From Podarcis pityusensis (Eukaryota), in assembly GCA_964106645.2 (NCBI GenBank), contig OZ067038.1: a DNA stretch of 64,000 nt. The stretch is one strand, 5' to 3'. Every line of letters begins with the position of its first letter. Positions within the stretch are counted from its first letter, which is position 1. The position numbers were made by a program, and so were the translations under genes. The notes beneath the pieces were generated by a model that was not told where the DNA came from, ran no database searches, and was given only the letters and a program-made list of their open reading frames with translations. Below are positions 5,501-51,441 of the stretch, piece by piece.

Positions 5501-8500
5501 CCTGGTCAATGGTACTGGTGGTCAGGGTGTGATAACTTTGAAGTTTTATTTCTTTTTGGCTATATCTTTACATTTCGGGTTGGGGGCACACTAGTTGACT
5601 GTTGTATAAGGGGCCCGCAAAATCATGGAATCAGCTTTGCGACTCTGCCTCTCTTATAATTTTACCATTGCTTAACTCCCTGGATTTTCTGTGTTGCATA
5701 TCTTATTGTTTGAGTTGATGTGGTTTTTCAGTTGTTAGTGACAGATATTAAACCACTTCATATACGCTTTCCTTTCATAAGTAAATTGGAAGGAAAGAGT
5801 GTGGTATCGTATTTTTCGCTCTATAAGACGCACCAGACCACAAGACGCACCTAGTTTTTGGAACAGGAAAACAAGAAAAAAAATATTCTGAATCTCAGAA
5901 GCCAGAACAGCAAGAGGGAGCGCTGCGCAGTGAAAGCAGCAATCCCTCTTGCTGTTCTGGCTTCTGGGATAGCTGCGCAGCCTTCCTTTGGTCCATAAGA
6001 TGCACACACATTTCCCCTTACTTTTTAGGAGGGAAAAAGTGAGTCTTATAGAGCAAAAAATACAGTATATCAGCTGTTCAGCATGACCTCAGACCCACTG
6101 CTGGGACACACACAAAGCTTGGATAAAAGGAGTATTTTGTGCTTCATATTGCAGTGGTCAAAAAACATAGTATTCTTAATTGATTTTTAATTTGTAGGCC
6201 ACAAGTGACTTAGAAAACTATGACAAGACTCGTCATGAGGAGTTTAAGAAATATGAGATGATGAAAGAACATGAAAGAAGAGAATATTTAAAAACACTGG
6301 ATGAAGAAAAGAGACGACAAGAAGAAGCTAAGTATGAAGAACTGAAGAAAAAGCACAGTAATCACCCCAAAGTTAACCATCCTGTAAGGACATGGTTTGT
6401 GTCTACCATATAGTGAAGGTGTATTCAGGCGTTATGAATTAAAAGGAGAATAAATAAAAGTACAGTGGTGCCCCGCAAGACGAATGCCTCGCAAGACGGA
6501 AAACCCGCTAGACGAAAGGGTTTTCCGTTTTTGAGTTGCTTCACAGGACGAATTTCCCTATGGGCTTGCTTCGCAAGACGAAAATGTCTTGCGAGTCTTG
6601 AGATTTTTTTTTCGCTTTCCCCCCCCCCTTTATCTAAGCCGCTAAGCCTTTAATAGCCTTTTAGCAGCTAATCCGCTAAGCCTTTAAGCCTTTAATAGCC
6701 GCTAAACCGCTAATAGCGCTAATCCGTTAAGCCGCTAATAGGGTTGCTTCGCAAGACGAAAAAACCGCTAGACGAAGACACTCGCGGAACGGATTAATTT
6801 CGTCTTGCGAGGCACCACTGTAGTGGGATATGCTTTATAGGTGCACTTAAATTTGGTTTGGTTATTGAACTGGCAGGACTTTACTGAACTGAAATATCAT
6901 TTTATATGCTTCCTTTCCAGCCATTTCTTATTTGATTTACATTTATGAGAAGGGACTGAGATCTGTGCTTCCTTTGAAAACTTTTCTAATACATGTTTGA
7001 GCTGCAGCTTTCATTACAACTTCTTCTGTGGGGAATAGAACCTGACCAAGTTCTACCTCCCCTTATGTTATGCCCATCTGTTAATAAGAGTGGCATTGTA
7101 GAATGATCCAAATGGTTCTTGACCATGTGTAACATATTGTTTCATTTTTGTTATCAGCTCTGCTGACAATTTAGGAATTCCTACTGAAGATGTTGACATT
7201 AATAGATGATAGATGTGTGCTTTTCAGTGTGTGTGTGGGGGGGGAATAACTAGATTTTGAAGCTTTTTTTAGAAAGGTAATATGGATTTATTTGGCACAA
7301 TGTGGTTGCAAGAACTGTCTATCTAATCATTTGCATTATTGCTTTTTCTGATCAACTTACAGGGAAGTAAAGACCAATTGAAAGAGGTGTGGGAGGAGGC
7401 AGATGGACTGGACCCCAATGATTTCGATCCAAAGACTTTTTTCAAGTTGCATGGTAAGGAGCATAATTTTTTCCTGTAAAAAATTAAGCAACTTGAGTGA
7501 TACTCTTGGGATTGCCTTCTCTGGAGCAATACCTTCATCATGTGACAACAAAGAATATTAAGTAAATTAACATCGGTAGTAGGGTAAAATCCCATTATGC
7601 AGATCAGGGCTGAGGTGATACAATTTATCAGACAGTTGAGTTCTAATTCAGCATTTTCACATTGGAGTGTCCCTTTTGTACTGGAGTTTATCTACATGTG
7701 TATAGGTCCTTGTAACACAACAATTTCTATAACTGGTGGGCTTGTTGCGCTTATTTTCATTTTGGCACTATTTACCTCAACAGTCTGGAGTCCATACTGA
7801 GGAAGAAAATAATAATGTTTTGAAGAAGGACTACAACTTAGATTCATTTTCAGCTTGCCTTGTATTTTTAAAACTCATGCCAATTACCCTTTCAAGGACT
7901 TGAAAACTAGTCTGGTAATTATACATGACCTTCTGGACAGATTACTCAGTCTTTTGAAGGTTCTTTAAAGCTGCAATAAGCAGAATTTCCAAAACTGCTA
8001 AAGAATCAATATTCAGATCTGGGCAAAGGGGCCAGAGCTTATAAGGCTATGCTCTGCAAAATAAAACCCTCTTTTGCTGTTATTGTTAGGAAGTAAGTCT
8101 GGGCAAGGTTGTCCCAGCTGCCCTCCAGCCACTGGGACTAAAGAACCTGTAAAATATCAGGAAATGGGACTGAGAGTTAACCCCTCCTCATTTCTGTTCT
8201 CTATTTATCCCTGCTATTACACAATGGCTGTGTGTGGCAAAGTGACTTTATCAACATTATGGTGTTGTGACAAATGTGCAGGGCTGGACAGATCTGAAGC
8301 AGATACATATAAAGAATAGTATCCGAGACAGATAGTTAATTCCTTTCTAAGTTAAATAGCACCAACAATTTCTAAACAGCAGTTAGGCACTGAAATCTTA
8401 CAAAGGTCATGGATGTTCACACCCTTGTCTAACAGGCCCTTGCTTCAAAAGTTAATTATTAAAAGTCAAGCTGCCATGATTTAATGCAGATAAACATGAT

Positions 8501-17994: not shown

Positions 17995-18085
17995 ATGGAC
18001 TGGGGAGGTGGGTTGGCGGCCCGCAGGTGCCTCCTGCACGGCTTCTCGGTGTTCCTCTGTGGCGTCGTCGTCCTCCAGCCGGCAG
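17995..18085 (+). CDS. NCR3LG1: NCR3LG1-like exon 1, signal peptide [30 protein letters not shown]
   Basis: ATG (cccATGG) in a CpG island, hydrophobic leader, donor GCAG|gtaaac in phase 1 matching the IgV exon. Confidence 0.8.
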
Positions 18086-23735: not shown

Positions 23736-23769
<34 letters not shown>

Positions 23770-26700
23770 TACCTGTAAAATTTGTTCTGTATCCTTCAGT
23801 GTCAAAATGCTATGAAGGCAGCTTAACTACTTAAACAATACAATGATAAATATCGAGCAACAAAAACAACAAAGCAGAGGAAGAAAAAAATACCTTCATA
23901 TCAATGGCGGGGGAAAATAAACCAGCTGGTATTTTGAAGGACCTGGGAACATAAAATGCCCCTCCAGGTCCGTCATTTACCTTTCTGCTTTTTCCATCCA
24001 GTTGTGCAGAGTCGTTTGTAACTCTAGTTTTGCCCAATTTTGGTATTCTCCTGGACTCCTTTCTTCAGCTCTTTGCCTCCACCATTATTTCCCCCCAAGT
24101 TCCTTCTTGTTCATTTTTATTACAACCAAGGCTCTTGACCAGCCTTCTTAGTAGGCTTCCCCCCTTCCCACCCATAGCACACAGCTCCTCTTGACCCACA
24201 AAACACCTTCTTCAGGACTTCTCTTCTGTGCCTCTTGCCCCAGCCTTCTCCTTCTGCTTAAACAACCCTCACCCCAGGTTTTTAATTTAGACCATGTCCT
24301 TCTGAGAAATCAGGAGTATGAACTATGACTTTCACTTCACTTTCAACCAGCTTTTGTCTGAAAAACTGTATAAAAATGCAGTAAAAACAGAAAAAATGAC
24401 ACTTTTTATTATCTCCATGCAGCTCAACCTTCAGTAAAGCTGTCTCCCAGGACAGTTGAACTAGAAGACGGCAAGGAGAAGACCCTGTCATGCACAGTGA
24501 ATAAATTCTATCCTCTTTTGATTGAGGTTCATTGGGAGAAAAAATCTGAACGCGGCAATAATGAAGTTGTACCTGCAGATGATATTTGCACAGGGGTACC
24601 TGTGAAAAATGGAGATGGCACTTTCAATGTAACCAGTAAACTGGGGCTACAACCATCTTTACAGGATAATGGAAATGTCTATAGTTGTGTTGTGGGACAC
24701 AAATCATTTTCCATACGGCAGGCCTTCAATGCCACTTTGATAGTAACAGGTATTCCTTCTGTTGACCTTTTCTCCCTGTGTGTGTGTATGTGTATAATAG
24801 TGGGTCACATCCAACTGGTGTACTTCCATGAGTGTAGGGGCTTTTGATCCAGAAGGGGAGAGGATATTTGCCCACACACCCTGGAGCCTTCAGCACCTTC
24901 CACTAATTCTGCCCAATGTTCTGAAATGTAGCTTTCTCCTTTCTCCAAAGATTCATATTGTACTTACAAATGCATTAGTCTTTGGGACTTCCATGCTAGG
25001 GCATCACAAGGAAAGGGATAAAATATATTGTAATGCCTTTATACAAATCTATGGGAATACTGTGCACAGTTCTAGTCGCTGCATCTCAAAAAGATTATTG
25101 TGGAGCTGGAAAAGGTGCACAAAAAGGGCAACCAAAAATGATATTAGGGATGGAACAACTCCTTAGTGAGAAAAGGTTATGGCACTTGGGGCTTTTTAGT
25201 TTTTTTTTTAAAAAAGGCAAATATGAGGAAGGGACATGTTAGAATTGTATAAAATTATGTGTGATATAATTATCTGGGATGCGGGTGGTGCTGTGGGTTA
25301 AACCACAGAGCCTAGGACTTGCTGATTAGAAGGTCGGCGGTTTGAATCCCCGCAACGGGGTGAGCTCCCATTGCTTGGTCCCTGCTCCTGCCAACCTAGC
25401 AGTTCCAAAACACTTCAAACGTGCAAGTAGATAAATAGGTACCGCTCTGGTGGGAAGGTAAATGGTGTTTCCGAGCACTGCTCTGGTTCGCCAGAAGCGG
25501 CTTAGTCATGTTGGTCACATGACCCAGAAGCTGTATGCCGGCTCTCTTGGCCAATAAAGTGAGATGAGTGCCGCAACCCCAGAGTCGGTCACAACTGGAC
25601 CTAATGGTCAGGGGTCCCTTTACCTTTACCTTTATGTGTGATATGGATGGAAGTTAGTTCTCCATTAACACAATCTGGGATCATCCAGTCAAGTTGACTG
25701 GTGAGAGGTTCAGGGCAGACAAAAAGAAGTACTTTTTCATGCAACATATGCTTAACTTACAGAATTCACTGCCATGTGGTGGTCTGTTGATGGCCATTAG
25801 CTTAGATGGGTTTACAGTGTGATTGGACACAATTGTGGACTGTAAGCCCACCAATGGCTACCTCCAAAATCAGAGGTAGCATGCCTCTGAATATAACTTT
25901 CTGGCAAACAACAATATGAGAGGTCTTTATGTCCACTTTGGAAACCTTATAGTCATGCTAGACCAGATTAGTCTTTGGGCTTCTCCAGCTTTTCTTATGT
26001 GCAGTTGGAATAAATGAGGCTAAAATAACTTTGCCATGATTGAGTAGCTGAATATGAAATATTACTTCTCATCAAAAGGTTGCAACAAGGCTGAAACATT
26101 TTGCTATTTTGTGTGATAAGTAACAAGAACAATTTCTCTCTCTTTACAGAACCACCACCAAATTTTACCTGGTTGGCTGTGATACTTGTTTTATTATTAC
26201 TTGGTGTGATTCCTGTAATTCTGTACATAATGTACTTTAAGAAAAGTAAGTAATGGGAAACATTTAATTAATTGATTATTTAATTTTTTCAATTAAGAGA
26301 ATTCTATACTATTCATCAAATGTGGTTAAGGGTGGTTTACAAAAATAGATTAATATGAAACATAATACATGCACATATTCATTATTATTAAAGTAAAATT
26401 AGTATTTTTGTGAAATCTTAATCTTTGGTAAACTTAGGTCTGAAATGACAGTATTCAAAAAATCCTAGGCACCAGTACACCAGGCACCAAAAAATCTCCT
26501 TGCCTGTGGTTAAGAATTTTGACTAAGTTTTCTTTTAAGTGGCTAAGATTTCTTTGCTGAATCAGTTGGGGAAGGGCCATAACTCAGTGATAGAACATCT
26601 GTTTTGCATGCAAGAGGTCCTAACTGGTTAGTTCTAGCTTCAGCACTATCTTGGAGATGGATGGCTGTCAGTGACAGAGTGGTGGCCCTATGCCCCAGAT

Positions 26701-29700
26701 TTATCTGCTCACTAGAAAAGACTCATGGAGTCTATACAACTGAAGCTACTATTTGTTTTTTGTTTTTTAAATAATTTTTATTAAGATTTCAATAAAAGTT
26801 AAACAACAAAAAAAAGTTAAAATACAAAAACACGCAATACATAATCCAAAAAGAAAAAGAAAACACAGAAAACAAAATACAAAAAAAACCCTAAAAACAA
26901 ACAAACAGAACAATTAAAAACAGTATCACTTTTCCATTTCCGTTTTTGAATTTACTTATTTTCTGGACTTCCTCATACCTCCCTCTTTTGTATTCCAGTC
27001 CAAATTGTTTGTCCAGCAATTTCTTTTCCACTTTTTTAATCCCAATCTTTAATCGTAATATAATATAACATTAAATTTTTACCTCTTAAGTACCAAATTT
27101 CCATTTCCTTAAACATCTTTAATCCTAATCTTTAATCTTAGTCTATCAATAACTTTAACCTGTACAGCTGGAAACCACTTATTTTCGATCCAACATCACT
27201 CTAACATTCCTTAATTTTGCAATGTTTCTGAAGATAATCTTTGAATTTCTTCCAATCTTCCTCCACCAATTCTTCTTCCTGGTCACGGATTCTGCCAGTC
27301 ATTTCCGCCAGTTCCATATAGTCCATCAGTTTCATCTGCCATTCCTCCAGCATGGGAAGTTCTTGTGTCTTCCAATACTTTGCGATGAGTATTCTTGCTG
27401 CTGTTGTTGCATACTTAAAGAAAGTTCTATCCTTTTTTAACACCATTTGGCCGACTATGCCCAGGAGAAAGGCCTCTGGTTTCTTAGGGAAGGTATATTT
27501 AAATACCTTTTTTAATTCATTATATATCATTTCCCAGAAAGCCTTAATCTTTGGGCACGTCCACCAAAGGTGAAAAAATGTACCTTCAGTCTGAAGCTAC
27601 TATTTGACATTGCAAGTACTCAACTAGCAACCAATAACATCCACATGAAGTATGTCCTGGAATAGACCCTGAAGGTCATTTAGTCCAAGCCCCTGTCACA
27701 GATAAAGCACTCTTTCTCAGCTCTTTTGCTTTATTCTACATAATACAGAAATAGCACACTGCAAGATTCTTAATTCAGGACTACAAAGCTAACCAAAATA
27801 CTTGGGTGGGATATGTACAAAAGGAATAAGAAGGAATGCTTAATCTGTGGCTACCCTGCACTGAACAGGGAGTTGGACTGAATGACCTTTAAGGTGTTAA
27901 GGAATATAGCTAGTGTGTTAATTTCATTAGTGAGGGAAAAGCTGACTCACTGATTCATTTCCAAAATGCACCTGGCTCAATTTGACTTCTTTATCAATTT
28001 ACTGGGCAGATTTGGTTGCCCAGTCTTATTCCAGGACACGTCCTCTTTTTCAGGGGTAAAATTTCTGTCCAGGTAGATTTTTAAAATTTGCCCAAATGTC
28101 TCTGGCTATACTTTCTGGATGAGACATAGACTTGCTTTCCTTTTCTCTTCTCCTGTCCCCCTCAGCAATATATCACAGCTTCTATATCCTACCTGTGGTA
28201 GAGATATTTAAAACAAGTCGTCATAGCGTCCTCTTTGTTGCTCTTCAAAATATGGCTAACTTAGTAAGCATGCTACTATATGTATAAAAGGGCTCGGATT
28301 AGAGAATTGGTTGTGGGTCAGTGGCTGTTATCAGGAAGGGATGGATCATTGTGAAACACTTTGAGGAGAGCTCATCTGAAAAGAAGGCTGGCATATGGAT
28401 TTTGCTCAGCAAGGATTTTGAATTACACAAACTCCTCTGGGACCAAAGAGAGAAAAGCCTTTGTGCAACCTGTATATAGTGTGTAAATATAGAGTGTGTA
28501 TTTTGTGTGTGTCAGGTAAAACAACTGCTTAAAACAAGAACTGTTTTGGGTTGGTGAGCTAAGCAACTTTACTGAAGCTTCCAGGGCGCACACAGAGAGA
28601 GCAAGATTTATAGATTGAAGATAGCACCCCACATCACCATAAGGTTCTTTTAAACTCTTATTATTCTGTGGGAAAGGTGCACATAGCCAGTACACTTCCA
28701 TCCGTTCTGTGTTAATGGGTACTCATAACATATCATGGTGTCTTCTGCTTAAGGTGGAACTAATCACAACATAGGACATCTACTGCATATCCATCCATAT
28801 TGTCTAAATAACACCTCTGTTGAGGGTGTGACCTTTAACAGCTGCAAAACCCAGCATTTTGGAGCTTAAGAGAACATGGAACTTAATACAATACATTAAG
28901 CTGTTAGGTTTTTTGTTCACTGAACTGTCACTATTCAATGTCTTATTGCCACAGAGGAATTATGGAAGGAATTATCCTCCAAATCAGAATGATTCTTTGT
29001 GCAAATTCATATGCTGCAAACATCTTATTAAAATCCCTGCTCCTACCTTCTGGCTTTCTATCATATCATCCCCAACCCTTTAAAGCTTTAAACAGTCTTT
29101 GCTGAACTGGCTTCTTAAGTAAGGCTGTTGCTATACTCAACTGAACCTAACCTCAAAAATAAACTCTTCCTAATCTTACTGAGCCAACGCTTCATCCAGG
29201 ACTGTCTTTTTCTTCCAGTTATGCTTTACCTGATCTGTACTGCAAGCACTCTGGATAGGGACTGTGCCACTTGATCTTTGATACAGCATCTTGCATACAT
29301 TGCTATTCACCATGTAGCAGTCACTAGCATTTGCGATAGACTGAATGTGATCATTACAAAAAAGAAAAATAATGCTTTGTTGTAAACTGCAGTAAGAATG
29401 TTCCTCTTACAGATGACTTGTTATAATAGTATCCGTTGAAACACTGCTACAAGTTTCTACACCTGAAATTCTTTGTTTTGTTCTTTATAGTTCAACCAGG
29501 GATATTTTCAGCAACTGCAAATAAGGAATTGAAACATTTGGAAGAAGCACTGGTGGTGTTCTGGCTGCAAGGCTTTCGTCCAAAGCCTTTAGAAATAGTT
29601 TTTTTCTTAAAACTCCAAAGCAGGAATGAAAAACTGAAACTGTGCTCTTGGAATACTATGACAGGCAGCAATATTGAACACGGAGAAGATATGCCTCTTA

Positions 29701-30645
29701 TCACTGGAAAAGAAGAAGAAAGTTCTGATCTTGACAAGACGTTGAAGACCATGTTTACTTTTGAGCCAGCTTTGCAAGTAAAACAAAGGCGCACTTTTGA
29801 CGTTTCCTGCAAAGTCAACATAGTTCCAGATGTAAAGCATCTGGAGGAGTTTGAACTTATACTTGAAGTTAGACATGAGGCCTTTTCAGATCGTTTGTCT
29901 ACTGAAACAATATCATTTAAAGTCATAGGTAAGTAGGAAAGATGGGCTGAAATGATCACTTAGAATAATACTACATATTTCACTGGCTATTACAGTGGTA
30001 CCTCGGGTTAAGTACTTAATTTGTTCTGGAGGTCCATTCTTAACCTGAAACTGTTCTTAACCTGAAGCACCACTTTAGCTAATGGGGCCTCCTGCTGCCG
30101 CTGCGCCGCCAGAGCACAATTTCTGTTCTCATCCTGAAGCAAAGTTCTTAACCTGAAGCACTATTTCTGGGTTAGCGGAGTCTGTAACCTGAAGCGTATG
30201 TAACCTGAAGCGTATGTAACCTGAGGTACCACTGTATAAGAATTCTGTCAACAGATGAAAGGTGAGAGAGCTGCATGAATGCAGTGGGATACTTTCTGCT
30301 GCCAGTGATGATACACAAAGGGAAACAATGCAGGATTGTAGCTAAACTCTTTGATCAGTCTACAAAAAGTGAATGATAAAATGGGAAAGCAGCACAGGTG
30401 GCTTGTGTGGAGATTATTTTTCTTAATCTCGTTCAGTTTGACTAGTTTCTTATAACTTGTGAGCCCGTACGAAGGGTGAAGTGATGACCTTTAAAGCATT
30501 TCATGGTATAAGGCCTGCACGGGATTGTGTACTCCCTGCCTTCTTCAGATCAGAAATTCATGTGGACAAAAGAAAGTCCATACTTATTATCTTCTCCAGT
30601 TGCATTCTACTTGCTAATAATATCACTTTTTTGGTATGTATACAT

Positions 30646-30676
<31 letters not shown>

Positions 30677-33600
30677 CAGAATGTACTCCCAAAGTCTCCA
30701 AATTTGAATGTGAGCCTCCTGTACCAGAGTGTGGGAAACTCATCACATTATCTTGTTTAGTAGAAGATTTCTGCCCACGGGAGTGTGACGTTTGTTGGCT
30801 AAGAGGCAATAATGAGCCTTTGGATGCTATAAGTAACACAGAGGAGCCACAACTGGACCCAGGATCAAATCTGTATTGCAAGAAAAGCAGAGTATCCTTT
30901 ATACCTCAACCAGAAGACCATGCAGTAGACTTTATTGTTCAAATCAACCATTGTAAAAAAGTTATAAGACATAGTTACCCGCTCATGTTAAAAGGTGAGT
31001 ACTCGGCAAGTTCTTGTGCAATGAACCACTACTTGTGCTTTCCGTCTAAATAGTTTATCTAAAACTGGAAATACATAATGGAGTTGTTTCCTGTATCTGT
31101 ATTTGTTGTGGGTCTTTGATAACTTGTATTGAAAGAGATCACTTGTATCTCTTTGTCATTAGGTGATGCTATCGTGGGTTTGTCACATGGAAAACATGAC
31201 TCAGAGAGTCCTTGCACAGAAGTGTCAAGTCCTTCATAAAATTAGTATAGAAGTTTTTCTGGGTGAAATCAGCAAAGCAAGTTCATAGCTGATATGTGCA
31301 TCTTCGTAGGAAAATTATAGTGTCGGCTAGTGGCAAATTGCAAACATGACAAGCATTATAGTGCAGCCAATTTAAAACATGAATCAATGAGAAATCGAAG
31401 CTCTCATCTGTTTCAGTCCAGAAGGTCAAAGATGGCACACTTTGTATTCCAACCAGAATAAAACACAGCCATGTTTAATCATATGCATTTAATAACAAAT
31501 AATATATATGTGGGTGTCATATATGTTAGAATATGTTACAGACTGCCAAGGCTCTCCTGCCATTATATGCATACTCTTATCATTTCTCCATATACCGTAT
31601 TGTGTGGATTTGAACTAATTAAATCTGCAAAGCTTTTAATTTGTAGTTTTGTGAGATTGCTCTGATTTTACAAAAGATCTGTCTCCCAGAGTTCATTGGG
31701 AGAAGCCATAACATCTAAACTAGGCAAACTTGGTAGTTTTGACAAGACTGTGGTGTTAATTGCTCATTCTATCCTTTAATTTCAACCAGGGTTGTAGTGA
31801 GAGTGAAAGGATAAGCAACTGTAATTTTTCCAAACCTAACTCTTTTTGAGAGAGACTGTGTGTATATATCCATGTGTGTATCCACTGAGGATAGGAGTTC
31901 ATGCATCATATGAAGTAGCCTGTAGTCCATGAAAGTTTATGCCATGATATATGTGTTATAAAGTGACACTAGGCTAGCTTTTGCTGTAACATACTAATGT
32001 GACACCCCATCTGCCATTTGTCACTTCTAATTTACTGTTTTGCAATGCCAGATGTACTAGCATTCTTTGAATTTAAACTAATATTTTCAATTGTTTGTTT
32101 TCTCTGCATCTGCATTTTTTAGGTTACCCCAAAGTTACAGATATTACGTGTGAACCAAATTATCCTAAATATGGAACTACATTGTCTCTAACCTGTAAAG
32201 TCACAGATTTCTTTCTTAGCAACATAAATATTCAATGGCTTGATGGGGGTATTGAAATAAGTAAAGGTGTGGTCACAGAGGGGCCAGTCAAAGACTCAAA
32301 TGGCTGCTTGAAGTTGTCTTCTGAGCTCCAGCTGATACCAACTGCTTTGGATCATAATAAGTTCATTATTTTCAGTGTGACATATGGCGACCTGAAAAAG
32401 CCCATTATTAGAGATGTGTATCTAAAGCTCCCAGGTACGTACTGAGAGTCCTTTGGGTTCTTTCAACTTTTGGCAAATGGCAATTTGAGCTTGTTTATTT
32501 AACAAAATTTGTAAACCACTTAATTTTAAACATGTTGTTAAGTGATTGTAAAAATGTCTAAGTGGTTTGCATAAAATAAAATGTATATTAAATTGAGGAT
32601 CAATGTAGTATTATGATATAAAGCAGTTCCCTTTGCAACAAGGGAGGTTTGACATGTTTGTGTACTCTGATAGGTGTACCATATAGCCATGTCTCTACTA
32701 GCAGTCATGTGTCCCTAATATCTGCCAGTTTTGTTTGTTTTTTGAAAGTCCAAACTTCCTTGCAGACTTGCATTTAGTAGTTCTGAAGATTCCCTGGTAA
32801 AAAAATCAGGTAAATCTAATAAAAACTAAAAAACACACACCATATGTTCACACATAGGCACTGATGTTACTAGTTCACCCCAAGTTTTTGAAAATCAAAA
32901 ACCATATTCTCAGATCTATATTCATTGAAGATGAATATCCTTGCAACCCTGCTGATCTGAAGTGTGATTTAAACAATGACACATTTAAATCCTTCATAAA
33001 ATTCCTGTACTTTTTAGAGGAAAGTTATAGAATAGATTCACATTGGGGAAGGGCAGTAGAATATCCTAGGTTTAGCCCCTAGCATTTCCAGGCAGGGCTG
33101 GAAATATCCCCTGCTTGAAACTGTGCAGAGCTGCTGGCAGACACTGTAAACAACACTGAACTAGATGGATTAATGGACTGACTTGGTATAAGGCATATTT
33201 TTATGTTCCTGTTGTCTTGTATTCTCACTTCAAGTACATCCTTTCCTTTCCTCCCCATTTAGTTCACCGCCCTGAGATGTCTGAAATAAAGGAAACAGCG
33301 CAAAACAGTGAGAGCATCTCTTTGGAAACTGTCATATCAAATTTTGCACCTTGCAACATAAAAGTGACATGGTATGAAGAATGGGAAAAAATATCTGAAG
33401 ACAATCCCAGGAACATTCAGATTGGAGAAAACAAGTTAGGTTATTTTGTAAGCAAATTACAGTTTAGTCCAAAAGGAAAAGACTCCAAAAAGACAATCAG
33501 ATGTGAAGTTTTTCACCAAGCGACACAGGATTTTAAAGAAACAAGCTTTGTGTGGGAAAGGAAAGGTAAGAACTTTTTTTTTTATGTTTTCAGCGCAGAA

Positions 33601-35497
33601 TGTACAGAATTTATGTAAGGGATTCAGACATGTCCCTCCAAAAAACACTGCTAATGGGGGAAAAGGTGATTCCTCTTCTCAATTAAGCACTTCCGTTACT
33701 TAGGACTCAGCTACAATAGTAAAAAAACAAGAGAGTTTTAAATGCATTATAAACATGGAACACCAGGTGCACTGTAGAGCACAATACTTTTCTATGTGTT
33801 TTACATAGAGTTTTTTCTTTTGTTATAACAATTTAATTTATAATTTAATTATAGCGTTTCCCCCCCTGTGTGTAGATACACCCTCGGTCATGGCTGAAAG
33901 ATGGCTTTGTAGTCTTTTGGGTAGCTTATGATTTTCTCATATTTAATAATATTCTTCAGAAGACAAGTGTATCTGGTTGTTATGTCAACATAATGCTCTT
34001 ACAACACACCTGGTTTTAGAAATTTTGTCTTGAATTCATCAGAGAACTAGATTTTGAATTTTTTCCATGAATATTGCTCTGACTGTATCTCTCCCCACTA
34101 CAACCCCCCAAATGCTACCCTTGGAAGGCAGTTGGCTAATTGCAGTTGAAAGCGTGTTGATTCAGTTGAGTAGCATTTTTGCTGTAAGTATTTCTGTTAC
34201 GTGACATGATGCCTGCCCAAGGCCTAATATGTTATTTCTTCTTTTAAACAAGATGAGCCTGATAGCCTTGACAGCATGTCTACAGTGAGTGAAAACCACG
34301 GTGAGTATTGCACCTCACGTGTAGGTAAAATGCAGGTACATGACACATTGACTCAGTGGTTTCATATCCTGTTTTTGCAGTCCCAGTTAAAATCAGAAAA
34401 CTGCTTAGATGTTTCTTGGAGGAGGCAGTGGGAGAAGAGAGCACTTGGACAATCTTTACTCTGCTTATAAACCATTATTTATTAAAGTGAGATCATTACA
34501 TCTCAACCAGACCATTAAGTTACTCTAAACGTGCACATTATTTTCATAAGGGATGATCTGAAAGATCAGCTTAGTCCATTCTGTGAAACTTGTACGCAGG
34601 GATCTGCAAGCTTTCGTTTGGCATAAAAGCCTGCCACTATTTGTGGCCACAGTGACCACTCCTCTCAGCCCTCTGAAATGTACAAGGAAACAGGAAAGGG
34701 TGCAAAGGAGTTCCTCATGTCATGCTTCTATTTACGCCATTCCTATTCTGCTTAATGTATGACAATATATTTATATACCACTGGATAGTTTTTAAAAATC
34801 ATAAAAATAATAAAACAATAACAGGTTTGACAAAACAACTATGTGAAACATTAGTTTTAAAACAAGTAGTTTATGAATTTATATGCCACCATTAATATCT
34901 TAATAACTGAGTCTCTAACAACCGATAAAAGATACTGAAGACATATGAAAGACATTCATATATGCTTAACTGAACACATGAAAGTCCATCCAGATGAAAC
35001 TACAGATTGGGGCTTGAAGATAAAACTGTATCAATGTGAGCAGAAAGTTCAAATTATCTGACTTGAGGAAAATATGCAAATGATTGGAAACTGAACATCA
35101 CAACCAGGGATGCTTAATGTTAGCGAGATGCCTCTTCCAGGTATGTACTTCAAGAGCAGTTTCCTATTCAATTTCCTATTCCCTCTCTCTAGATTCTAAG
35201 TTACCAACTCAGCCTATGAAGATAGAATGTGTCACCAGCAACCCAAAGGCAGGCGAGGTGACTCTTCGCTGTTTTGTACCTGGAATAAGAGCAGAGGAAG
35301 CCATTGTTTCCTGGTTTAACGGAGTATATCCAGTTGATGATAAAATACAGAATGAAAACTGTGGCGATGGATCTGGTTTTATTTCGTATGTGAACATTAC
35401 AACCGAAAAAGATAAGAAAAAATATGAAATCGAATGTGCAGTTTATGTAGATGCAAATGATGAAACCTTGCGTGAAACCTTTGATTTAGAACTTTGA
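17995..35497 (+). CDS. NCR3LG1: NCR3LG1/B7-H6-like type I membrane protein with five extra post-transmembrane Ig-like domains, predicted 861 aa; exons 17995-18085, 22245-22595, 24423-24749, 26150-26245, 29491-29928, 30680-30994, 32123-32434, 33263-33565, 34253-34300, 35193-35497
   Basis: Syntenic position between NUCB2 and KCNJ11. IgV (SLKVTM...IPC...VEWYWK...[26 protein letters not shown]) and IgC1 (CTVNKFYP...[14 protein letters not shown]...YSCVVGH) resemble B7-H6. All introns are GT-AG phase 1, and the summed CDS of 2586 nt is one open frame. The B7-H6 identity is strong; joining of the post-TM exons is inferred. Confidence 0.85.
18364..18591. mobile_element. Penelope-like element remnant in inverted (palindromic) arrangement with 12-bp TSD
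   Basis: TSD TAACGAGAGTAA at 18352-18363 and 18592-18603; perfect inverted repeat 18403-18588; terminal sequence of the type found in reptile Penelope elements (family assignment from memory). Confidence 0.75.
18498..18537 (+). ncRNA. Minimal type I hammerhead ribozyme motif (mirror copy on - strand at 18454-18493)
   Basis: GGUAU-CUGAAGA-A-GUGUGC(UU)GCACAC-GAAA-GC-UC-AUACC: stem I GGUAU/AUACC, CUGANGA and GAAA core, stem II, tiny palindromic stem III (AGCU). Confidence 0.65.
18971..19640 (-). mobile_element. CR1 LINE 3' end, internally deleted
   Basis: ORF 19045-19446 [16 protein letters not shown]...[11 protein letters not shown]...[10 protein letters not shown] is the CR1 ORF2 C-terminus; ATGATTC-type tail; joined to an upstream ORF2 segment ([10 protein letters not shown]...KKWKRG). 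Confidence 0.9.
19711..20027 (-). mobile_element. L1-clade 3' UTR fragment with poly(A)
   Basis: T-run and TTTATT at the left end, A-rich body like the L1 at 26756-27590, flanking direct repeat ttattattattaacta. Confidence 0.55.
20050..20900 (-). mobile_element. Old L2-like LINE fragments
   Basis: Motifs such as tttaaggctttataggtcaaaaccagcactttgaattgggcccagaaactaattggcagccagtgcag, with a related copy near 12150-12260. Confidence 0.5.
21607..21963 (+). mobile_element. Sauria SINE
   Basis: tRNA-like head (GGTTCGAATCCC-type B box), body GTGCAAGTAGATAAATAGGTACC, (ACCTTT) tail. Confidence 0.9.
22245..22595 (+). CDS. NCR3LG1: NCR3LG1-like exon 2, IgV domain
   Basis: Canonical B-strand Cys, C-strand Trp and EEGIYSC; T-rich tract with AG acceptor; donor G|gtaag. 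Confidence 0.93.
22965..23120 (-). mobile_element. CR1 3' fragment
   Basis: Similar to 18980-19150 (gagttggaa...ctctgctt...tccaaagaaggagag...aacagctctta). Confidence 0.65.
23740..23770. repeat. (TATG)n microsatellite
   Basis: Direct reading. Confidence 0.95.
24423..24749 (+). CDS. NCR3LG1: NCR3LG1-like exon 3, IgC1 domain
   Basis: [20 protein letters not shown] and [10 protein letters not shown]1-set motifs; both Cys present; cag| acceptor and |gtattc donor. Confidence 0.93.
25000..25870 (+). mobile_element. Decayed CR1 ORF2 3' fragment interrupted by a Sauria SINE
   Basis: gagctggaaaaggtgcacaaaaagggcaaccaaaatgatatt (ELEKV..RATKMI-like), continuing after the SINE as aggttcagggcagacaaaaagaagtacttt. 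Confidence 0.6.
25276..25633 (+). mobile_element. Sauria SINE, full length
   Basis: GGGATGCGGGTGG start, (ACCTTT)n tail, TSD-like ttatgtgtgatat at 25255-25267 and 25632-25644. Confidence 0.92.
26150..26245 (+). CDS. NCR3LG1: NCR3LG1-like exon 4, stalk + transmembrane helix ([32 protein letters not shown])
   Basis: Strong acceptor tttctctctctttacag|, donor A|gtaagt, 96 nt phase 1-1, about 23 hydrophobic residues followed by KK; too short to appear in the ORF track. Confidence 0.88.
26756..27590 (-). mobile_element. 5'-truncated L1-clade LINE (ORF2 C-terminus + 3' UTR + poly(A))
   Basis: [17 protein letters not shown] zinc-knuckle region leading into ORF 27201-27530; perfect 16-bp TSD ctgaagctactatttg at 26740-26755 and 27591-27606. 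Confidence 0.9.
29491..29928 (+). CDS. NCR3LG1: Post-TM exon 5, degenerate Ig C1-like domain (146 codons)
   Basis: ttctttatag| acceptor, G|gtaagt donor; FWLQGFRP and LEVRHEAF echo C1 motifs CxxxGFYP and CxVxH but lack the Cys. Confidence 0.8.
29993..30234. mobile_element. Tigger-like MITE, family A
   Basis: TA-CAGTGGTACCTCGGGTTA...TAACCTGAGGTACCACTG-TA. Confidence 0.9.
30645..30676. repeat. (TTTA)8 microsatellite forming a splice-acceptor tract
   Basis: Direct reading; immediately followed by cag and the exon. Confidence 0.95.
30680..30994 (+). CDS. NCR3LG1: Post-TM exon 6, Cys-rich Ig C1-like domain (105 codons)
   Basis: tttacag| acceptor, G|gtgagt donor; [12 protein letters not shown]...VCWL...FIVQINH. 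Confidence 0.85.
32123..32434 (+). CDS. NCR3LG1: Post-TM exon 7, Ig C1-like domain (104 codons)
   Basis: ttttttag| acceptor, G|gtacgt donor; [11 protein letters not shown]...IQWL...LSSELQLIP. Confidence 0.85.
33263..33565 (+). CDS. NCR3LG1: Post-TM exon 8, Ig C1-like domain (101 codons)
   Basis: ccccatttag| acceptor, G|gtaag donor; [14 protein letters not shown]...IRCEVFH. Confidence 0.85.
34253..34300 (+). CDS. NCR3LG1: Putative 48-nt linker exon 9 ([16 protein letters not shown])
   Basis: Pyrimidine tract + aacaag| acceptor, CACG|gtgagt donor, frame-preserving phase 1-1; no homology support. Confidence 0.5.
35193..35497 (+). CDS. NCR3LG1: Terminal exon 10, Ig-like domain with both Cys, stop TGA 35495-35497
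   Basis: ccctctctctag| acceptor; VTLRCFVP...VSWF...YEIECAV; ends ETFDLEL*. Confidence 0.8.
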
Positions 35498-35509
35498 GAA
35501 ATCATTGTA

Positions 35510-36394
35510 CAGTGGTGCCCCGCTAGACGAATGCCTCGCAAGACGAAAAACTCGCTAGACGAAAGGGTTTTGCGTTTTTTCAGCTGCTTCGCAAGACGAA
35601 TTTCCCTATGGGCTTGCTTCGCAAGACGAAAAACGAAAACGTCTTGCAAGTTTCTTTCCTTTTTCTTAACACCATTAATACAGTTGTTTGTATCGAAGTT
35701 GACTTCGAAGAGCAACTCATAGAACGCGGTGTGGTAGCCTTTTTTGAGGTTTTTGAAGACTTTGGTGATTTTTGAAGCTTTTCCAAAACTTCTTTTGCAC
35801 CCATTTGGTAAGTTAAACTTTTAAAACTTTTTTGGGGGGTTTTGGATTTTGGGTTGGGGTGTTTGGAATTCAAGGACTTGGTGTTGGGGAGGGGTTTGCA
35901 AGAATCTGGAAGCTTGTGTTTTTTTTCCTGCATTTTTATGATTTTCTGTGACCACTGGGCCACTCTGCTGTTTTTTTAAAAAAATTCTGGATTTGAATTT
36001 CTGTGTGGTGGGTGGCTGGGGGAACAGTTGAGGAAGGGGTTCTTCAGCAAGAAGCAAAGAGTGGAAGAGGAACCTTCTTCGAGTTGTCCCCCAGAGTCTT
36101 AGAAAATGTACTGTACACTTTGTTGATTTTTTAATGTTTTTCTGTCATGTTTAGAAACTTAATTTATTGTTCCTTCAGTTTTTGAAATGCTCTTTACAGT
36201 ATGTGTGACTTTAAAGAGCACTTAATAAACTCTTGTTGTACCAAATTTGGCTTTGTTTGGACTTTTTTTGACCATAGGAACGCATTAATTGAATTTCAGT
36301 GCATTCCTATGGGATTTCGTGCTTCGCAAGACGAAAAATTCGCTAGACGAAAAAACTCGCGGAAGAATTAATTTCGTCTTGCGAGGCACCACTG
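35510..36394. mobile_element. Tigger-like non-autonomous element, family B (long copy), 12 bp after the NCR3LG1-like stop codon
   Basis: Same TIRs as 6463-6820, with TA flanks. Confidence 0.88.
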
Positions 36395-38117
36395 TATAAA
36401 GACAGTGAATATACAAAAAGAACCACAGTAAAAATCTACTGCAGGCTGCTTTCATACATCCCCTGCTTGCTTCCATGAGGTGTGTGGGTCCTGCCAGTCC
36501 TGTTTTGTGGGTCCCCACAAAATTGATGGGCATTCCCATTCAAATGGTGTGTGTGACCTCATCATGTGATTGATTATGTAGGGTGGGGCTTACCTGGGCT
36601 CTCACAAAATTTTATTCAAGTTGGCACCCCTGCTTTGAAGCCGTATGTGAAGAAAGCCTGCTTATATTAATGAGGTTGTAATGTATATTATGTAATATAA
36701 TGAAATACTGTATAGCATAATATAATGTATGGGTGATGATGTTGTTGATGATAAGTCTCCACTCTGGTTCAGTGATAAGCTGTAACAGGACGGTGGTAGA
36801 ATTTTCAGTACACAAAAGAGGGACTGAGGGTAAGCATATTTTAATTGGTGGATATATCTAGCTGAGCACTGGCCAGCAAAGCAAGTTCAGGAGTTGCCAT
36901 TGAGCAGGACAGGAAGGAGTCAAAATAGACTTGTACTTAAATAAATCAGTAAAGGACCTAGCTCAATGGTAAAAGAAGGACCATAGCTCAAGTGCAGACC
37001 TTGCTTGCAGATTCAGTTCCCAGCATCTCTCAAGTAGGGTTGGGATGCACTCCTGCCTGAAACCCTGAAGAGCTGCTGCCAGTCAGTGTAGACAATATTG
37101 AGCTGGATAGACCAGTTGTCTATCTCAGCGTAAGGCAGCTTTTGTGTTTCTATGTCTGATAGAAAACGCTTCCAGCAGTGACCTCATTGGTTAAGGCTTA
37201 ACTGGGATGGAAAGAAAAGGAGCAACCTGTATTACTATGTTGAAGTAACTAGGTAACCTTGCCCATAATATTGAAACAAACAAATGTTGGTATATTTGCT
37301 TAATGTAATAGCTAATTGCCTTTATACTGCACCTGTACTCTATTGTCACCAGGTTATTGGTAAGTTAAGTGTCTAGAGGGAGTAAGGGATGGTGGCCATG
37401 GCACAGATTTAGGAGAACTTTTGGAGTGGAAGTTGAATGTTATTATTGTAGAGAAAGTACGGGGGGATCCCTTCCCTCCACACCCTGCATAATGGCTTGA
37501 AATTCAGTTTTCAGAAGCTTACTCCCAAACAAACCTGCCCAAGTAATGAGCTCATCTTCAGGGGCCTTGATCAGAAGTTAGACAGCTGGCAGAAAGGGGT
37601 GGGGGAGCATCTTGTAGAAGTGTCTCTTCAGAGATGTACAACTGGTGCCAAATAGGGATGTGAGCACTTGCAGCAAGGAGCACCCCTGCTCAAATTAAAA
37701 AGCAGTTTAAAGGCAGCATAGTCACTCTTGGAAGCTTCCTCCCTCGATTCTGCTCCCTCGAGCCCTGAGCTCTGTGCCTTCTATCACACCCTTGAGTGTC
37801 ATGTTCAGGATAGCTGCTGTCCTGCCATAGGAATGTAGGAAGTTGTCTTATACTGAGTCAGACTATTGCCCCAGGTCACTTAGTATTATTGATACTGACT
37901 GGCAGTAGAGTTTCAAACAGGGCCCTTTCTCAGGGTCTACCTGGTGATGCCATGGACTGAACTTGTAATTCCCTTCCTTCCTCCTTGATTCCCAAGGTGA
38001 GTGTTTTCTCCTTGAGGACAGGTAGTGAGCATTTGCTGAAAGTATTGAAGACCGCAACAGTGTCATGCTATTCAGGTTTACTCAGAAGTAAGTGCCATTG
38101 TGTTTAGTAGGGCTTAT

Positions 38118-50232: not shown

Positions 50233-51441
50233 TCAGGAAGGTTCATCGGATATGCAAAACATGGGCTTTAACCTGACAGACCTTTTCCTAATAGTGCCCC
50301 GAGGTGACAAGGAGATGCTGTCCAGGATGCTCTGGTTTTCCTCCAGTTGCCTGGCAGTGCAGCTTGGGGTGGGCACCTTCACAGTGTTGCCAAACTTGGA
50401 GTAGTCTACCGAGTACTGCCCATCCTCTTCGGTCACGATGGGCACAAACCTTTGTCCCCAGAGGATCTCGTCGGCCAAGTAGGACGTCCTGGCTTGAGTG
50501 GTGATGCCGGTGGTTTCCACCACCCCTTCTAGGATGACGATGACTTCCAGATCCTCGTGGTGGTGGAGGTTGTCGGGGGCCACGTCGTACAGAGGGCTGT
50601 TCCTGTCGATCACGTGGCAGATGATGAGCGGGGAGACCAGGAAGATGCTGTTGCCCCCTACCGGGTTCTCCATCTGGATGTCGATCTGGTGGAGGGGCAC
50701 CACCTCCCCCTCGGGGCTGGCCGTCTTCCGCACCACCTGCATGCGGATGGTGGCGCTGATGATCATGCTCTTGCGCAGATCGCCCACGCGCAGCATGAAG
50801 CAGAGCTTGCCCTGGCGGAGCGCGATCACGGCGTGCTTGCTGAAGATGAGCGTCTCGGCGCGCCGGTGCGCCTGGGCCGTCTTCATGAAGATGCAGCCCA
50901 GCATGATGGCGTTGATCACCAGGCCCACGATGTTCTGCACGATGAGGATGAGGATGGCGGCGGGGCACTCCTCGGTCATCATGCGCCCGCCGAAGCCGAT
51001 GGTCACCTGCACCTCGATGGAGAAGAGGAAGGCCGAGGTGAAGGAGCGGATGTCGGTCACGCAGGGCACGAAGTCCTCCGCGCCCCCGTCGCCGCCGCCG
51101 CCGCCCGGCTGCAGGTGGAGCTGGCGGGTGCTCTGGTCGAGGTCCCCGTGCGCGAAGGCGATGAGCCACCAGACCATGGCGAAGAGCAGCCAGCTGCACA
51201 GGAAGGACATGGTGAAGATGAGGAGCGTGTGGGGCCACTTGAGGTCCACCAGCGTGGTGAAGACGTCCTGCAGGAAGCGGCCCTGCTCGCGGATGTTCTT
51301 GTGGGCCACATTGCACGCGCCGTTCTTGCCCACGAAGCGGGCCCTCCTCTCCCGCGCGCGGTAGCGGGACGGATCCGGGACATCCTCGGCCAGCCGGGTC
51401 AGCACATACTCCTCCGGGATGATGCCCTTCCTGGACAGCAT
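50233..51441 (-). CDS. KCNJ11: ATP-sensitive inward rectifier K+ channel Kir6.2, single coding exon, 402 aa
   Basis: [20 protein letters not shown] start in a strong Kozak context (gcccgccATG), TIGFG selectivity filter, [26 protein letters not shown]-terminal RKR ER-retention motif; lies immediately downstream of ABCC8. Confidence 0.98.

What the first reader, a model, noticed from the sequence alone, without database searches (positions are those of the whole stretch)
29491..33565. Systematic loss of Ig disulfide cysteines and N-glycan sequons only after the TM exon
Seen: the extracellular V and C1 domains keep both canonical Cys. Post-TM domain 1 lacks both ([17 protein letters not shown]). 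Domains 2 and 3 keep the B-strand Cys but lose the F-strand Cys (FIVQINH; IIFSVTY). Domain 4 loses the B-strand Cys ([11 protein letters not shown]) but keeps the F-strand Cys. Only domain 5 has both. I count three N-x-S/T sequons in C1 plus stalk (NVT, NAT, NFT) versus one (NIT) in ~570 post-TM residues. The ORFs and splice sites are intact. Inference: this is the pattern expected for Ig folds maintained in the reducing cytosol, not pseudogene decay.
Basis: partly seen in the sequence, partly recalled or inferred. Interest (0 to 1): 0.75.

Follow-up and report, generated by a model that had tools for sequence, protein, structure and literature searches.

The report
B7-H6 with a cytosolic immunoglobulin tail
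This lizard gene is the orthologue of the NK-cell ligand B7-H6, but behind its single membrane helix it has five immunoglobulin-constant-type domains, conserved from frogs to crocodiles, that likely sit in the cytosol and carry a predicted endocytic sorting signal, whereas the human protein has a retroviral Gag-like tail there.

Summary
The exons belong to an intact ten-exon lacertid NCR3LG1/B7-H6 gene: signal peptide, V, C1, TM, five C1-like domains, 861 aa. The residue calls are correct.

The array is old. Orthologues in squamates, turtles, crocodilians, salamanders and frogs carry up to seven post-TM domains. Three canonical Cys sites are non-Cys in every aligned orthologue, and 12 further changes map to the tree. 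The ectodomain shows none (122 of 122 Cys).

The loss is not systematic. A domain deleted in lacertids keeps both Cys in 31 of 31, and a paralogue keeps them in 3 of 3 post-TM domains. Post-TM sequons sit at chance level (91 vs 102 expected) rather than depleted.

New here: an acidic dileucine motif lies in a predicted flexible loop of domain 1 in 32 of 39 homologues, against 2.9 expected. With one TM and positive-inside charge (26 of 27), this supports a cytosolic array that likely regulates trafficking.

Main rival: secreted TM-skipped isoforms. I found no paper describing the architecture, but could not read the key evolutionary paper.

The parts
17995..18085 (+). Exon 1: ATG and hydrophobic signal peptide (aa 1-30)
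   Evidence: same N-terminus in the RefSeq Podarcis model P0001
22245..22595 (+). IgV exon, extracellular, both canonical Cys
   Evidence: Pfam V-set 32.5 bits; human B7-H6 is the best PDB hit of the 96%-identical P0001
24423..24749 (+). IgC1 exon, extracellular, both canonical Cys, two sequons
   Evidence: Pfam C1-set 57.3 bits
26150..26245 (+). Stalk plus the single transmembrane helix, followed by basic residues; 96-nt symmetric phase-1 exon
   Evidence: hydropathy peak 3.15; helix 268-286 in the AlphaFold model of P0009; inclusion in a transcript inferred from a 100-nt gap in contig X1 record 3
29491..29928 (+). Post-TM domain D1: divergent Ig sandwich with a long insertion; neither canonical Cys
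   Evidence: no Pfam hit; AlphaFold pTM 0.79; Foldseek hits are Ig domains at 7-13% identity
29685..29702 (+). Acidic dileucine motif [DE]xxxL[LI] (aa 354-359) in the low-confidence loop of D1; predicted clathrin-adaptor sorting signal
   Evidence: 32 of 39 D1 loops vs 2.9 expected; E 22/23, L 23/23, L or I 22/23 among amniote rows; loop pLDDT<50; function of the motif recalled
30680..30994 (+). Post-TM domain D2 (C1-like): B-Cys kept, F-Cys replaced by V
   Evidence: Pfam C1-set 27.3 bits; F site non-Cys in 34 of 34
32123..32434 (+). Post-TM domain D3 (C1-like): B-Cys kept, F-Cys replaced by F
   Evidence: Pfam C1-set 41.7 bits; F site Cys in 9 of 33, mostly amphibians
33263..33565 (+). Post-TM domain D4 (C1-like): B-Cys replaced by T, F-Cys kept
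   Evidence: Pfam C1-set 32.6 bits; B site non-Cys in 34 of 34
34253..34300 (+). Short acidic linker exon (exact boundaries less certain; annotated relatives differ slightly)
   Evidence: low pLDDT
35193..35497 (+). Post-TM domain D5 (C1-like), both canonical Cys, ends at the stop codon; absent in several toxicoferan models
   Evidence: Pfam C1-set 15.2 bits, below the cut-off; folded
7327..7476 (+). Upstream neighbour: a nucleobindin exon (synteny marker)
   Evidence: phmmer to nucleobindin 1, E=1.2e-9; assignment to NUCB2 is recalled
50233..51438 (-). Downstream neighbour: intronless inward-rectifier K+ channel ORF (synteny marker)
   Evidence: Pfam IRK and IRK_C; assignment to KCNJ11 is recalled

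Best explanation
The gene encodes lizard B7-H6, a single-pass membrane protein whose V-C1 ectodomain is followed, after the membrane helix, by five predicted Ig-constant-type domains that likely lie in the cytosol, where the first domain's flexible loop likely recruits clathrin adaptors through a conserved dileucine signal.

Shown: the exon structure, orthology, one TM, conservation of the array since before the amphibian-amniote split, the pattern of Cys replacement, and conservation of the motif.

Inferred:
(1) Signal peptide, one TM and basic residues after it put V-C1 outside and the array inside.
(2) In the reducing cytosol the B-F disulfide no longer forms. Either Cys can then drift to a hydrophobic core residue (V, I, L, F, T) while Trp and the fold stay. 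Retained Cys act as buried core residues.
(3) The dileucine loop would send the protein into endocytic or lysosomal traffic and so limit how much ligand stands at the surface for an NKp30-type receptor.
(4) The remaining domains would form a rod-like docking scaffold whose partners are unidentified.
(5) The lineage leading to humans lost this tail, which is Gag-like there.
For: Topology:
- No hydrophobic peak after the TM in any of 38 homologues.
- C-side more positive in 26 of 27.
- Contig X1 record 3 joins C1 to D1 with 100 nt between them, i.e. 4 nt of C1 plus the 96-nt TM exon.

Cys: ectodomain 122 of 122 Cys with 0 changes. Post-TM, D1-F (31/31), D2-F (34/34) and D4-B (34/34) are fixed non-Cys, plus 12 changes at five other sites. 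Lone Cys stay invariant without a partner (D2-B 34/34, D4-F 34/34), so a conserved Cys here does not require the canonical disulfide.

Control: 12 of 12 pre-TM C1 exons of a V-C1-TM gene cluster in the same genome keep both Cys.

Sequons: enriched before the TM (84 vs 56), at chance after it (91 vs 102); density lower after the TM in 26 of 27. The two best-conserved sequons are in C1 (24/31, 17/32).

Fold.

Motif: 32 of 39 vs 2.9 by shuffling and 3.9% of other windows. Only the E and the two aliphatic positions of the loop are highly conserved.

Human tail: PMC2715080, section 4.
Against: - No experiment shows topology, adaptor binding or NKp30 binding.
- Domain Dx keeps both Cys in 31 of 31 orthologues that have it, D5 in most, and amphibian Dy in nearly all. 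The C6 paralogue keeps both in 3 of 3 post-TM domains. A retained pair is what a disulfide would give.
- TM-less isoforms are annotated in Varanus, Bombina and Lepidochelys.
- The motif is absent or degenerate in 7 of 39, including 4 of 6 salamander rows.
- The 39 rows are related, so they are not independent events.
- The TM piece of contig record 3 was not itself listed; its inclusion is inferred from length, and the run's RNA status is a guess by the tool.
Confidence: 0.68

Rival explanations
1. The array works mainly or also outside the cell, in a secreted isoform that skips the symmetric 96-nt TM exon. This isoform would be a soluble V-C1-(C1)n decoy for NKp30, with disulfides in the domains that keep both Cys.
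For: RefSeq isoforms lack exactly the TM exon in Varanus (X2) and Bombina (X2), and lack TM plus D1 in Lepidochelys (X6). A Hymenochirus model has no TM. The Dx pair is invariant in 31 of 31.
Against: TM-only or TM+D1 skipping appears in 3 of 19 isoform pairs compared. The same genes also show skips of C1, D2, D4 and Dy, so skipping looks generic to these phase-1 exons. The only transcript contig listed across this junction has room for the TM exon. A secreted role does not explain the fixed Cys losses, the chance-level sequons or the dileucine motif.
Confidence: 0.12
2. The array is cytosolic, but its main job is signalling or scaffolding (pairing of C1 domains, cytoskeleton or enzyme binding), and the dileucine-like motif is incidental or serves a different partner.
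For: Up to seven domains have been kept at V-domain-like identity for the span of tetrapod evolution, far more than a six-residue signal needs. The C6 paralogue has post-TM C1 domains without an obvious dileucine motif. C1 domains usually pair (recalled).
Against: The loop's conservation pattern matches the [DE]xxxL[LI] consensus exactly. The ITIM-like matches in the window protein fall on predicted beta-strands, so classical tyrosine signalling is unlikely. This reading is compatible with the best explanation rather than exclusive of it.
Confidence: 0.16
3. The exons are decaying remnants, or a second gene wrongly fused to B7-H6 by gene prediction.
For: Canonical Cys are missing. Exon depth in three raw RNA runs was near zero. 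Domain number varies among lineages.
Against: Open frames and splice sites are intact. The same V-C1-TM-array order recurs across five tetrapod groups. A spliced contig links C1 and D1. Each domain position groups across species.
Confidence: 0.02
4. The topology is inverted or two-pass, so the array is luminal and V-C1 cytosolic or looped.
For: None found beyond the fact that C1 domains are normally luminal (recalled).
Against: There is an N-terminal signal-like segment. V-C1 keep their disulfide Cys and enriched sequons. The C-side is positive in 26 of 27, and no second TM is seen.
Confidence: 0.02

Closest known systems
Human B7-H6 / NCR3LG1 (NKp30 ligand; PDB 3PV6, 3PV7, 4ZSO, 6YJP)
   Same: Signal peptide-IgV-IgC-TM with phase-1 introns. 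Best PDB sequence hit, E about 1e-35; 37% identity and TM-score 0.87-0.92 by target. RefSeq names the orthologues NCR3LG1.
   Different: The human protein is 454 aa with a Gag-homologous tail carrying ITIM, SH2- and SH3-binding motifs (PMC2715080). Here the tail is 578 aa of five C1-like domains with a dileucine loop. NKp30 binding is untested.
C1-set domains of antibodies, TCR, MHC, tapasin and SIRP
   Same: Pfam C1-set matches for D2-D4 above the cut-off, C-strand Trp, predicted beta-sandwich.
   Different: These are luminal or extracellular and disulfide-pinned (recalled). Here they follow the TM, and four of five lack the canonical Cys pair.
Intracellular Ig arrays (titin)
   Same: Tandem cytosolic Ig domains in which B- and F-strand Cys are present in some domains and absent in others (PMC5766482 passages).
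   Different: Titin domains are I-set in a soluble filament (recalled). These are C1-like and attached to an immune surface ligand.
Butyrophilins (B7-like ectodomain with a folded cytosolic B30.2 domain); acidic dileucine signals such as those of CD3-gamma, tyrosinase and HIV Nef (all recalled)
   Same: A B7-type ectodomain coupled to a folded cytosolic module. A dileucine signal shown from a flexible loop of a folded domain, as in Nef.
   Different: No B30.2 match in the Pfam scans. Adaptor binding is not tested here.

Membership tests
B7-H6 / NCR3LG1 orthologue | Type I protein with IgV + IgC ectodomain flanked by phase-1 introns | tested here: met
   definition from PMC2715080 section 4
B7-H6 / NCR3LG1 orthologue | Ectodomain closer to human B7-H6 than to other B7 proteins | tested here: met
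   126 bits vs 81 for CD276, query P0001, 96% identical to the window model; structural match
B7-H6 / NCR3LG1 orthologue | Synteny between a nucleobindin gene and a Kir6-type channel gene | tested here: met
   nucleobindin exon upstream, IRK ORF downstream; the human order NUCB2-NCR3LG1-KCNJ11 and the exact paralogue names are recalled
B7-H6 / NCR3LG1 orthologue | Gag-homologous cytoplasmic domain, as in human | tested here: not met
   Pfam gives only Ig families for the post-TM exons D2-D5 (none for D1) and for full-length orthologues
B7-H6 / NCR3LG1 orthologue | Binds NKp30 and activates NK cells | not testable with these tools
   no lizard NKp30 sequence was obtained; needs a binding assay
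C1-set Ig domain (post-TM domains) | Pfam C1-set score above the gathering cut-off | tested here: inconclusive
   met for 3 of 5 (D2, D3, D4); D5 15.2 bits vs cut-off 21; D1 no hit
C1-set Ig domain (post-TM domains) | Canonical B-F cysteine pair | tested here: not met
   present in 1 of 5 domains (D5)
C1-set Ig domain (post-TM domains) | Beta-sandwich fold with C-strand Trp | tested here: met
   predicted only: pLDDT mostly 80-93; Trp invariant in D2-D4, D1 mostly Phe; D1 matches Ig folds
Acidic dileucine sorting signal | [DE]xxxL[LI] consensus, selectively conserved, in an unstructured cytosolic segment | tested here: met
   consensus recalled; cytosolic side inferred
Acidic dileucine sorting signal | Binds AP-1, AP-2 or AP-3 and drives internalisation | not testable with these tools
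   needs mutagenesis and a binding assay
Pseudogene | Stops, frameshifts, lost splice sites, neutral divergence | tested here: not met
   dN/dS itself could not be computed (no orthologous coding DNA available)

The most novel reading that the evidence does not exclude
Ancestral tetrapod B7-H6 was a two-sided immunoglobulin protein: V-C1 outside, and up to seven C1-set domains (the fold of antibody and MHC constant regions) working in the cytosol as a trafficking and signalling module, with TM-exon skipping able to flip the same array into a secreted form. A second family member in the same genome shares the design, so it predates their duplication. The human Gag-like tail is a later replacement. 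This would be an undescribed class of cytosolic C1-set receptors.
Probability: 0.35. Interest if true: 0.82.

Novelty: new variant of a known kind. Interest (0 to 1): 0.62.

Why it matters
C1-set domains are treated as extracellular hallmarks of adaptive immunity. A conserved cytosolic C1 array is a natural experiment on how Ig constant domains fold without the disulfide, with replacements kept for the span of tetrapod evolution. That bears on intrabody design and Ig evolution.

It also recasts B7-H6. The human tumour ligand's Gag-like tail appears derived. The ancestral tail has a testable sorting signal that may set how much NK ligand reaches the surface.

Automated annotation already holds these proteins under the NCR3LG1 name, so the sequences are not new. 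What may be new is the reading of their topology, the Cys erosion and the motif.

Tried and rejected
- Sequon depletion as a signal: rejected, it is at chance level.
- A remnant of the missing Dx exon in the D1-D2 intron: none found by tblastn with six orthologues, so the exon is deleted in lacertids.
- A second TM exon after the array: the relaxed scan gave only intronic low-complexity candidates, and no homologue has a later hydrophobic peak.
- ITIM or Yxx-phi signalling: two ITIM-like matches lie on predicted strands; not pursued.
- Paralogues of the array elsewhere in the genome: D2 found no close second copy among 32 scored candidates. C1 found one paralogue on C6 among 54 scored.
- Expression: no RNA holder was listed on record. 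Three raw RNA runs gave near-zero exon depth, and repeats swamped the joint table, so skipping frequency was not measured.
- Fish, bird or mammal carriers of the array: none among the named hits. These word-based, length-limited searches are weak evidence, and no exhaustive profile search was obtained.
- ESM Atlas gave only generic C1-set clusters.
- No complex prediction and no VIA alignment were obtained.
- Literature: nine searches on B7-H6 or cytoplasmic Ig domains showed no paper describing the array; I saw the listings and read passages of five of the listed papers. Flajnik et al. 2012 (Immunogenetics 64:571) is not held.
- Earlier scan findings: three look-ups, nothing returned.
Full report
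GENE MODEL. The finding covers four exons of a ten-exon gene on the + strand, 17995-35497. All introns are GT-AG and phase 1. The exons give 861 aa with one terminal stop: signal peptide, V, C1, a 96-nt stalk/TM exon, domains D1-D4, a 48-nt linker and D5. The model is 97% identical to an annotated Podarcis lilfordi NCR3LG1 and 95-96% to full-length models of other Podarcis species. With the 96%-identical P0001 as query, human B7-H6 is the best PDB sequence hit (126 bits; CD276 81 bits). A nucleobindin exon lies upstream and an inward-rectifier channel downstream, matching the recalled human order NUCB2-NCR3LG1-KCNJ11. It is therefore the B7-H6 orthologue of a lacertid lizard.

OBSERVATION. The sequon contrast in this one protein is not significant: 1 observed, 3.6 expected, P=0.13. 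The tail is not poor in cysteine overall (20 in 578 aa).

THE ARRAY IS OLD. A search with the post-TM region of the Rhineura orthologue returned 38 proteins from squamates, turtles, crocodilians, salamanders and frogs. A profile search added snakes and frogs, including Xenopus. Most amniotes have six post-TM domains; some toxicoferan models lack D5. Lacertids lack one (Dx), with no remnant in the intron. Many amphibian models add one more, Dy, for up to seven. In a 60-row domain tree (103 columns, so deep forks are weak) each position forms one group across species. D2, D5, Dx and Dy have strong support; D3 (88/97) and D4 (94/84) have moderate support. Mean pairwise identity among seven distant species is 39-50% for post-TM domains, 42% for V and 54% for C1.

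FOLD. AlphaFold on P0009 (95% identical; 35-row alignment) gives one TM helix and five post-TM beta-sandwiches at pLDDT mostly 80-93. Its ectodomain superposes on human B7-H6. D1, which has no Pfam hit, folds alone at pTM 0.79 and matches Ig domains.

CYSTEINES ACROSS ORTHOLOGUES. I aligned 34 of the 38 hits, leaving out four isoform duplicates. Six cells were set aside as misaligned or mis-modelled: Lerista1 V (2), Tiliqua D5 (2), and Lerista2 and Hymenochirus D1-B. The four ectodomain sites are Cys in 122 of 122 cells with no change on the tree. After the TM, D1-F (31/31), D2-F (34/34) and D4-B (34/34) are never Cys. Five more sites change 12 times in all. Replacements are mostly core-compatible (V, I, L, F, T, A, M; a few S or Y). 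As a control, 12 of 12 pre-TM C1 exons in a V-C1-TM cluster on contig C13 keep both Cys.

Against a systematic loss: Dx keeps both in 31 of 31, D5 in most, amphibian Dy in nearly all and amphibian D3 in most. A paralogue on C6 keeps both in its three post-TM C1 exons. The partnerless D2-B and D4-F Cys are also invariant (34/34), so conservation of a core Cys does not prove a canonical disulfide. Titin shows the same mix of paired, single and absent B/F cysteines in cytosolic Ig domains (PMC5766482, passages).

SEQUONS. In the 27 of 34 rows with a locatable TM, sequons number 84 vs 56.3 expected before it and 91 vs 101.6 after it. Density is lower after the TM in 26 of 27. This is absence of selection for glycans, not active loss.

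TOPOLOGY. None of 38 homologues has a hydrophobic peak after the TM. The C-terminal flank is more positive in 26 of 27. In run X1, whose RNA status is the tool's guess, one 1179-nt contig covers C1 and D1 without the introns and has 100 nt between them, exactly 4 nt of C1 plus the 96-nt TM exon. The TM piece itself was not among the eight listed pieces. Three raw RNA runs had almost no exon depth. TM-less annotated isoforms occur in 3 of 19 isoform pairs compared (Varanus, Bombina, Lepidochelys), alongside skips of C1, D2, D4 and Dy.

A SORTING MOTIF. D1 has an insertion with pLDDT below 50. It contains [DE]xxxL[LIM] in 32 of 39 D1 loops: 20/22 squamate, 5/5 turtle, 2/2 crocodilian, 2/6 salamander-like and 3/4 frog rows. 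The expectation is 2.9 by shuffling, and 3.9% of other post-TM windows match. Among 23 amniote rows the acidic residue is kept in 22, the first Leu in 23 and Leu/Ile in 22, while the three residues between them show a commonest residue in only 5, 5 and 14 rows. The rows are related and the motif probably arose once; the point is selective retention. The consensus and its role as a signal for AP clathrin adaptors are recalled, not tested. Such a signal works only in the cytosol, so it supports the topology independently and supplies the mechanistic step.

MECHANISM. V-C1 faces out and presumably engages an NKp30-type receptor (inferred from orthology). The array faces the cytosol, where the B-F disulfide is dispensable and erodes domain by domain (inferred). 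The D1 loop likely recruits adaptors and limits surface display (inferred). D2-D5 likely act as a docking rod with unknown partners (weakest step). My confidence is about 0.85 for cytosolic topology and about 0.68 for the whole. Rivals: a secreted TM-skipped form (0.12), scaffold-first (0.16), decay or fusion (0.02), inverted topology (0.02).

COMPARISON AND NOVELTY. Human B7-H6 is 454 aa with a Gag-homologous tail (PMC2715080, section 4 and passages). With amphibians as outgroup and reptiles as sister group, parsimony makes the C1 array ancestral and the human tail derived. Birds, non-human mammals and fishes were not resolved. The proteins are in RefSeq under the NCR3LG1 name. Nine searches gave no paper on a cytoplasmic Ig array in B7-H6. 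I read passages only of PMC6514059, PMC11599192, PMC12227049 and PMC13262535, none of which mention it. Flajnik et al. 2012, the main study of amphibian B7H6, and its supplements could not be seen and may already note the domains. I therefore rate it a new variant of a known kind, with real uncertainty about priority. Interest 0.62.

Noticed in passing
G000:C6:21211424-21218072 (+); L009 8424-8768, L010 61-390, 1450-1569, 2477-2842, 4164-4472, 4758-5072: A second B7-H6-family gene: V, C1, TM exon, then three post-TM C1 exons, all with both canonical Cys; 5 sequons before the TM and 1 after. Its C1 is sister to the B7-H6 C1 group (98/97) and its first post-TM domain groups loosely with amphibian Dy. 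Its 3' end was not fixed. A TP53RK-like kinase ORF (name recalled) lies upstream.
   Followed up: partly
G000:C13:34669000-34714500 (-); L014-L019: Tandem cluster of at least five V-C1-(C1)-C1+TM genes with near-identical exons; 12 of 12 C1 exons keep both Cys. An expanded B7- or tapasin-like family; not named.
   Followed up: partly
P0106 (Dendropsophus, 1432 aa): Frog V-C1-C1-TM protein with about nine post-TM C1-like domains that alternate between keeping both canonical Cys and lacking them; these group apart from the orthologous array.
   Followed up: partly
window 29929-30679: The exon for domain Dx, present in 31 other aligned orthologues, is absent in lacertids; a repeat element occupies part of this intron.
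   Followed up: yes
window 30680-30994 and orthologues: D2 holds nine Cys. Non-canonical Cys are conserved in the A strand of Dx (24/34), D2 (32/34) and D5 (26/26) and after the B strand of D2 (32/34); they could be lipidated, bind metal or form non-canonical bonds.
   Followed up: no
P0097 (Thamnophis), P0024/P0037 (Lerista), P0016 (Podarcis raffonei, 297 aa): Tandem duplications of the gene in a snake and a skink, and short V-C1 'like' models without the array.
   Followed up: no
window 35507-36397: A repeat element with inverted-repeat-like ends begins about 10 nt after the stop codon, in the 3' UTR.
   Followed up: no
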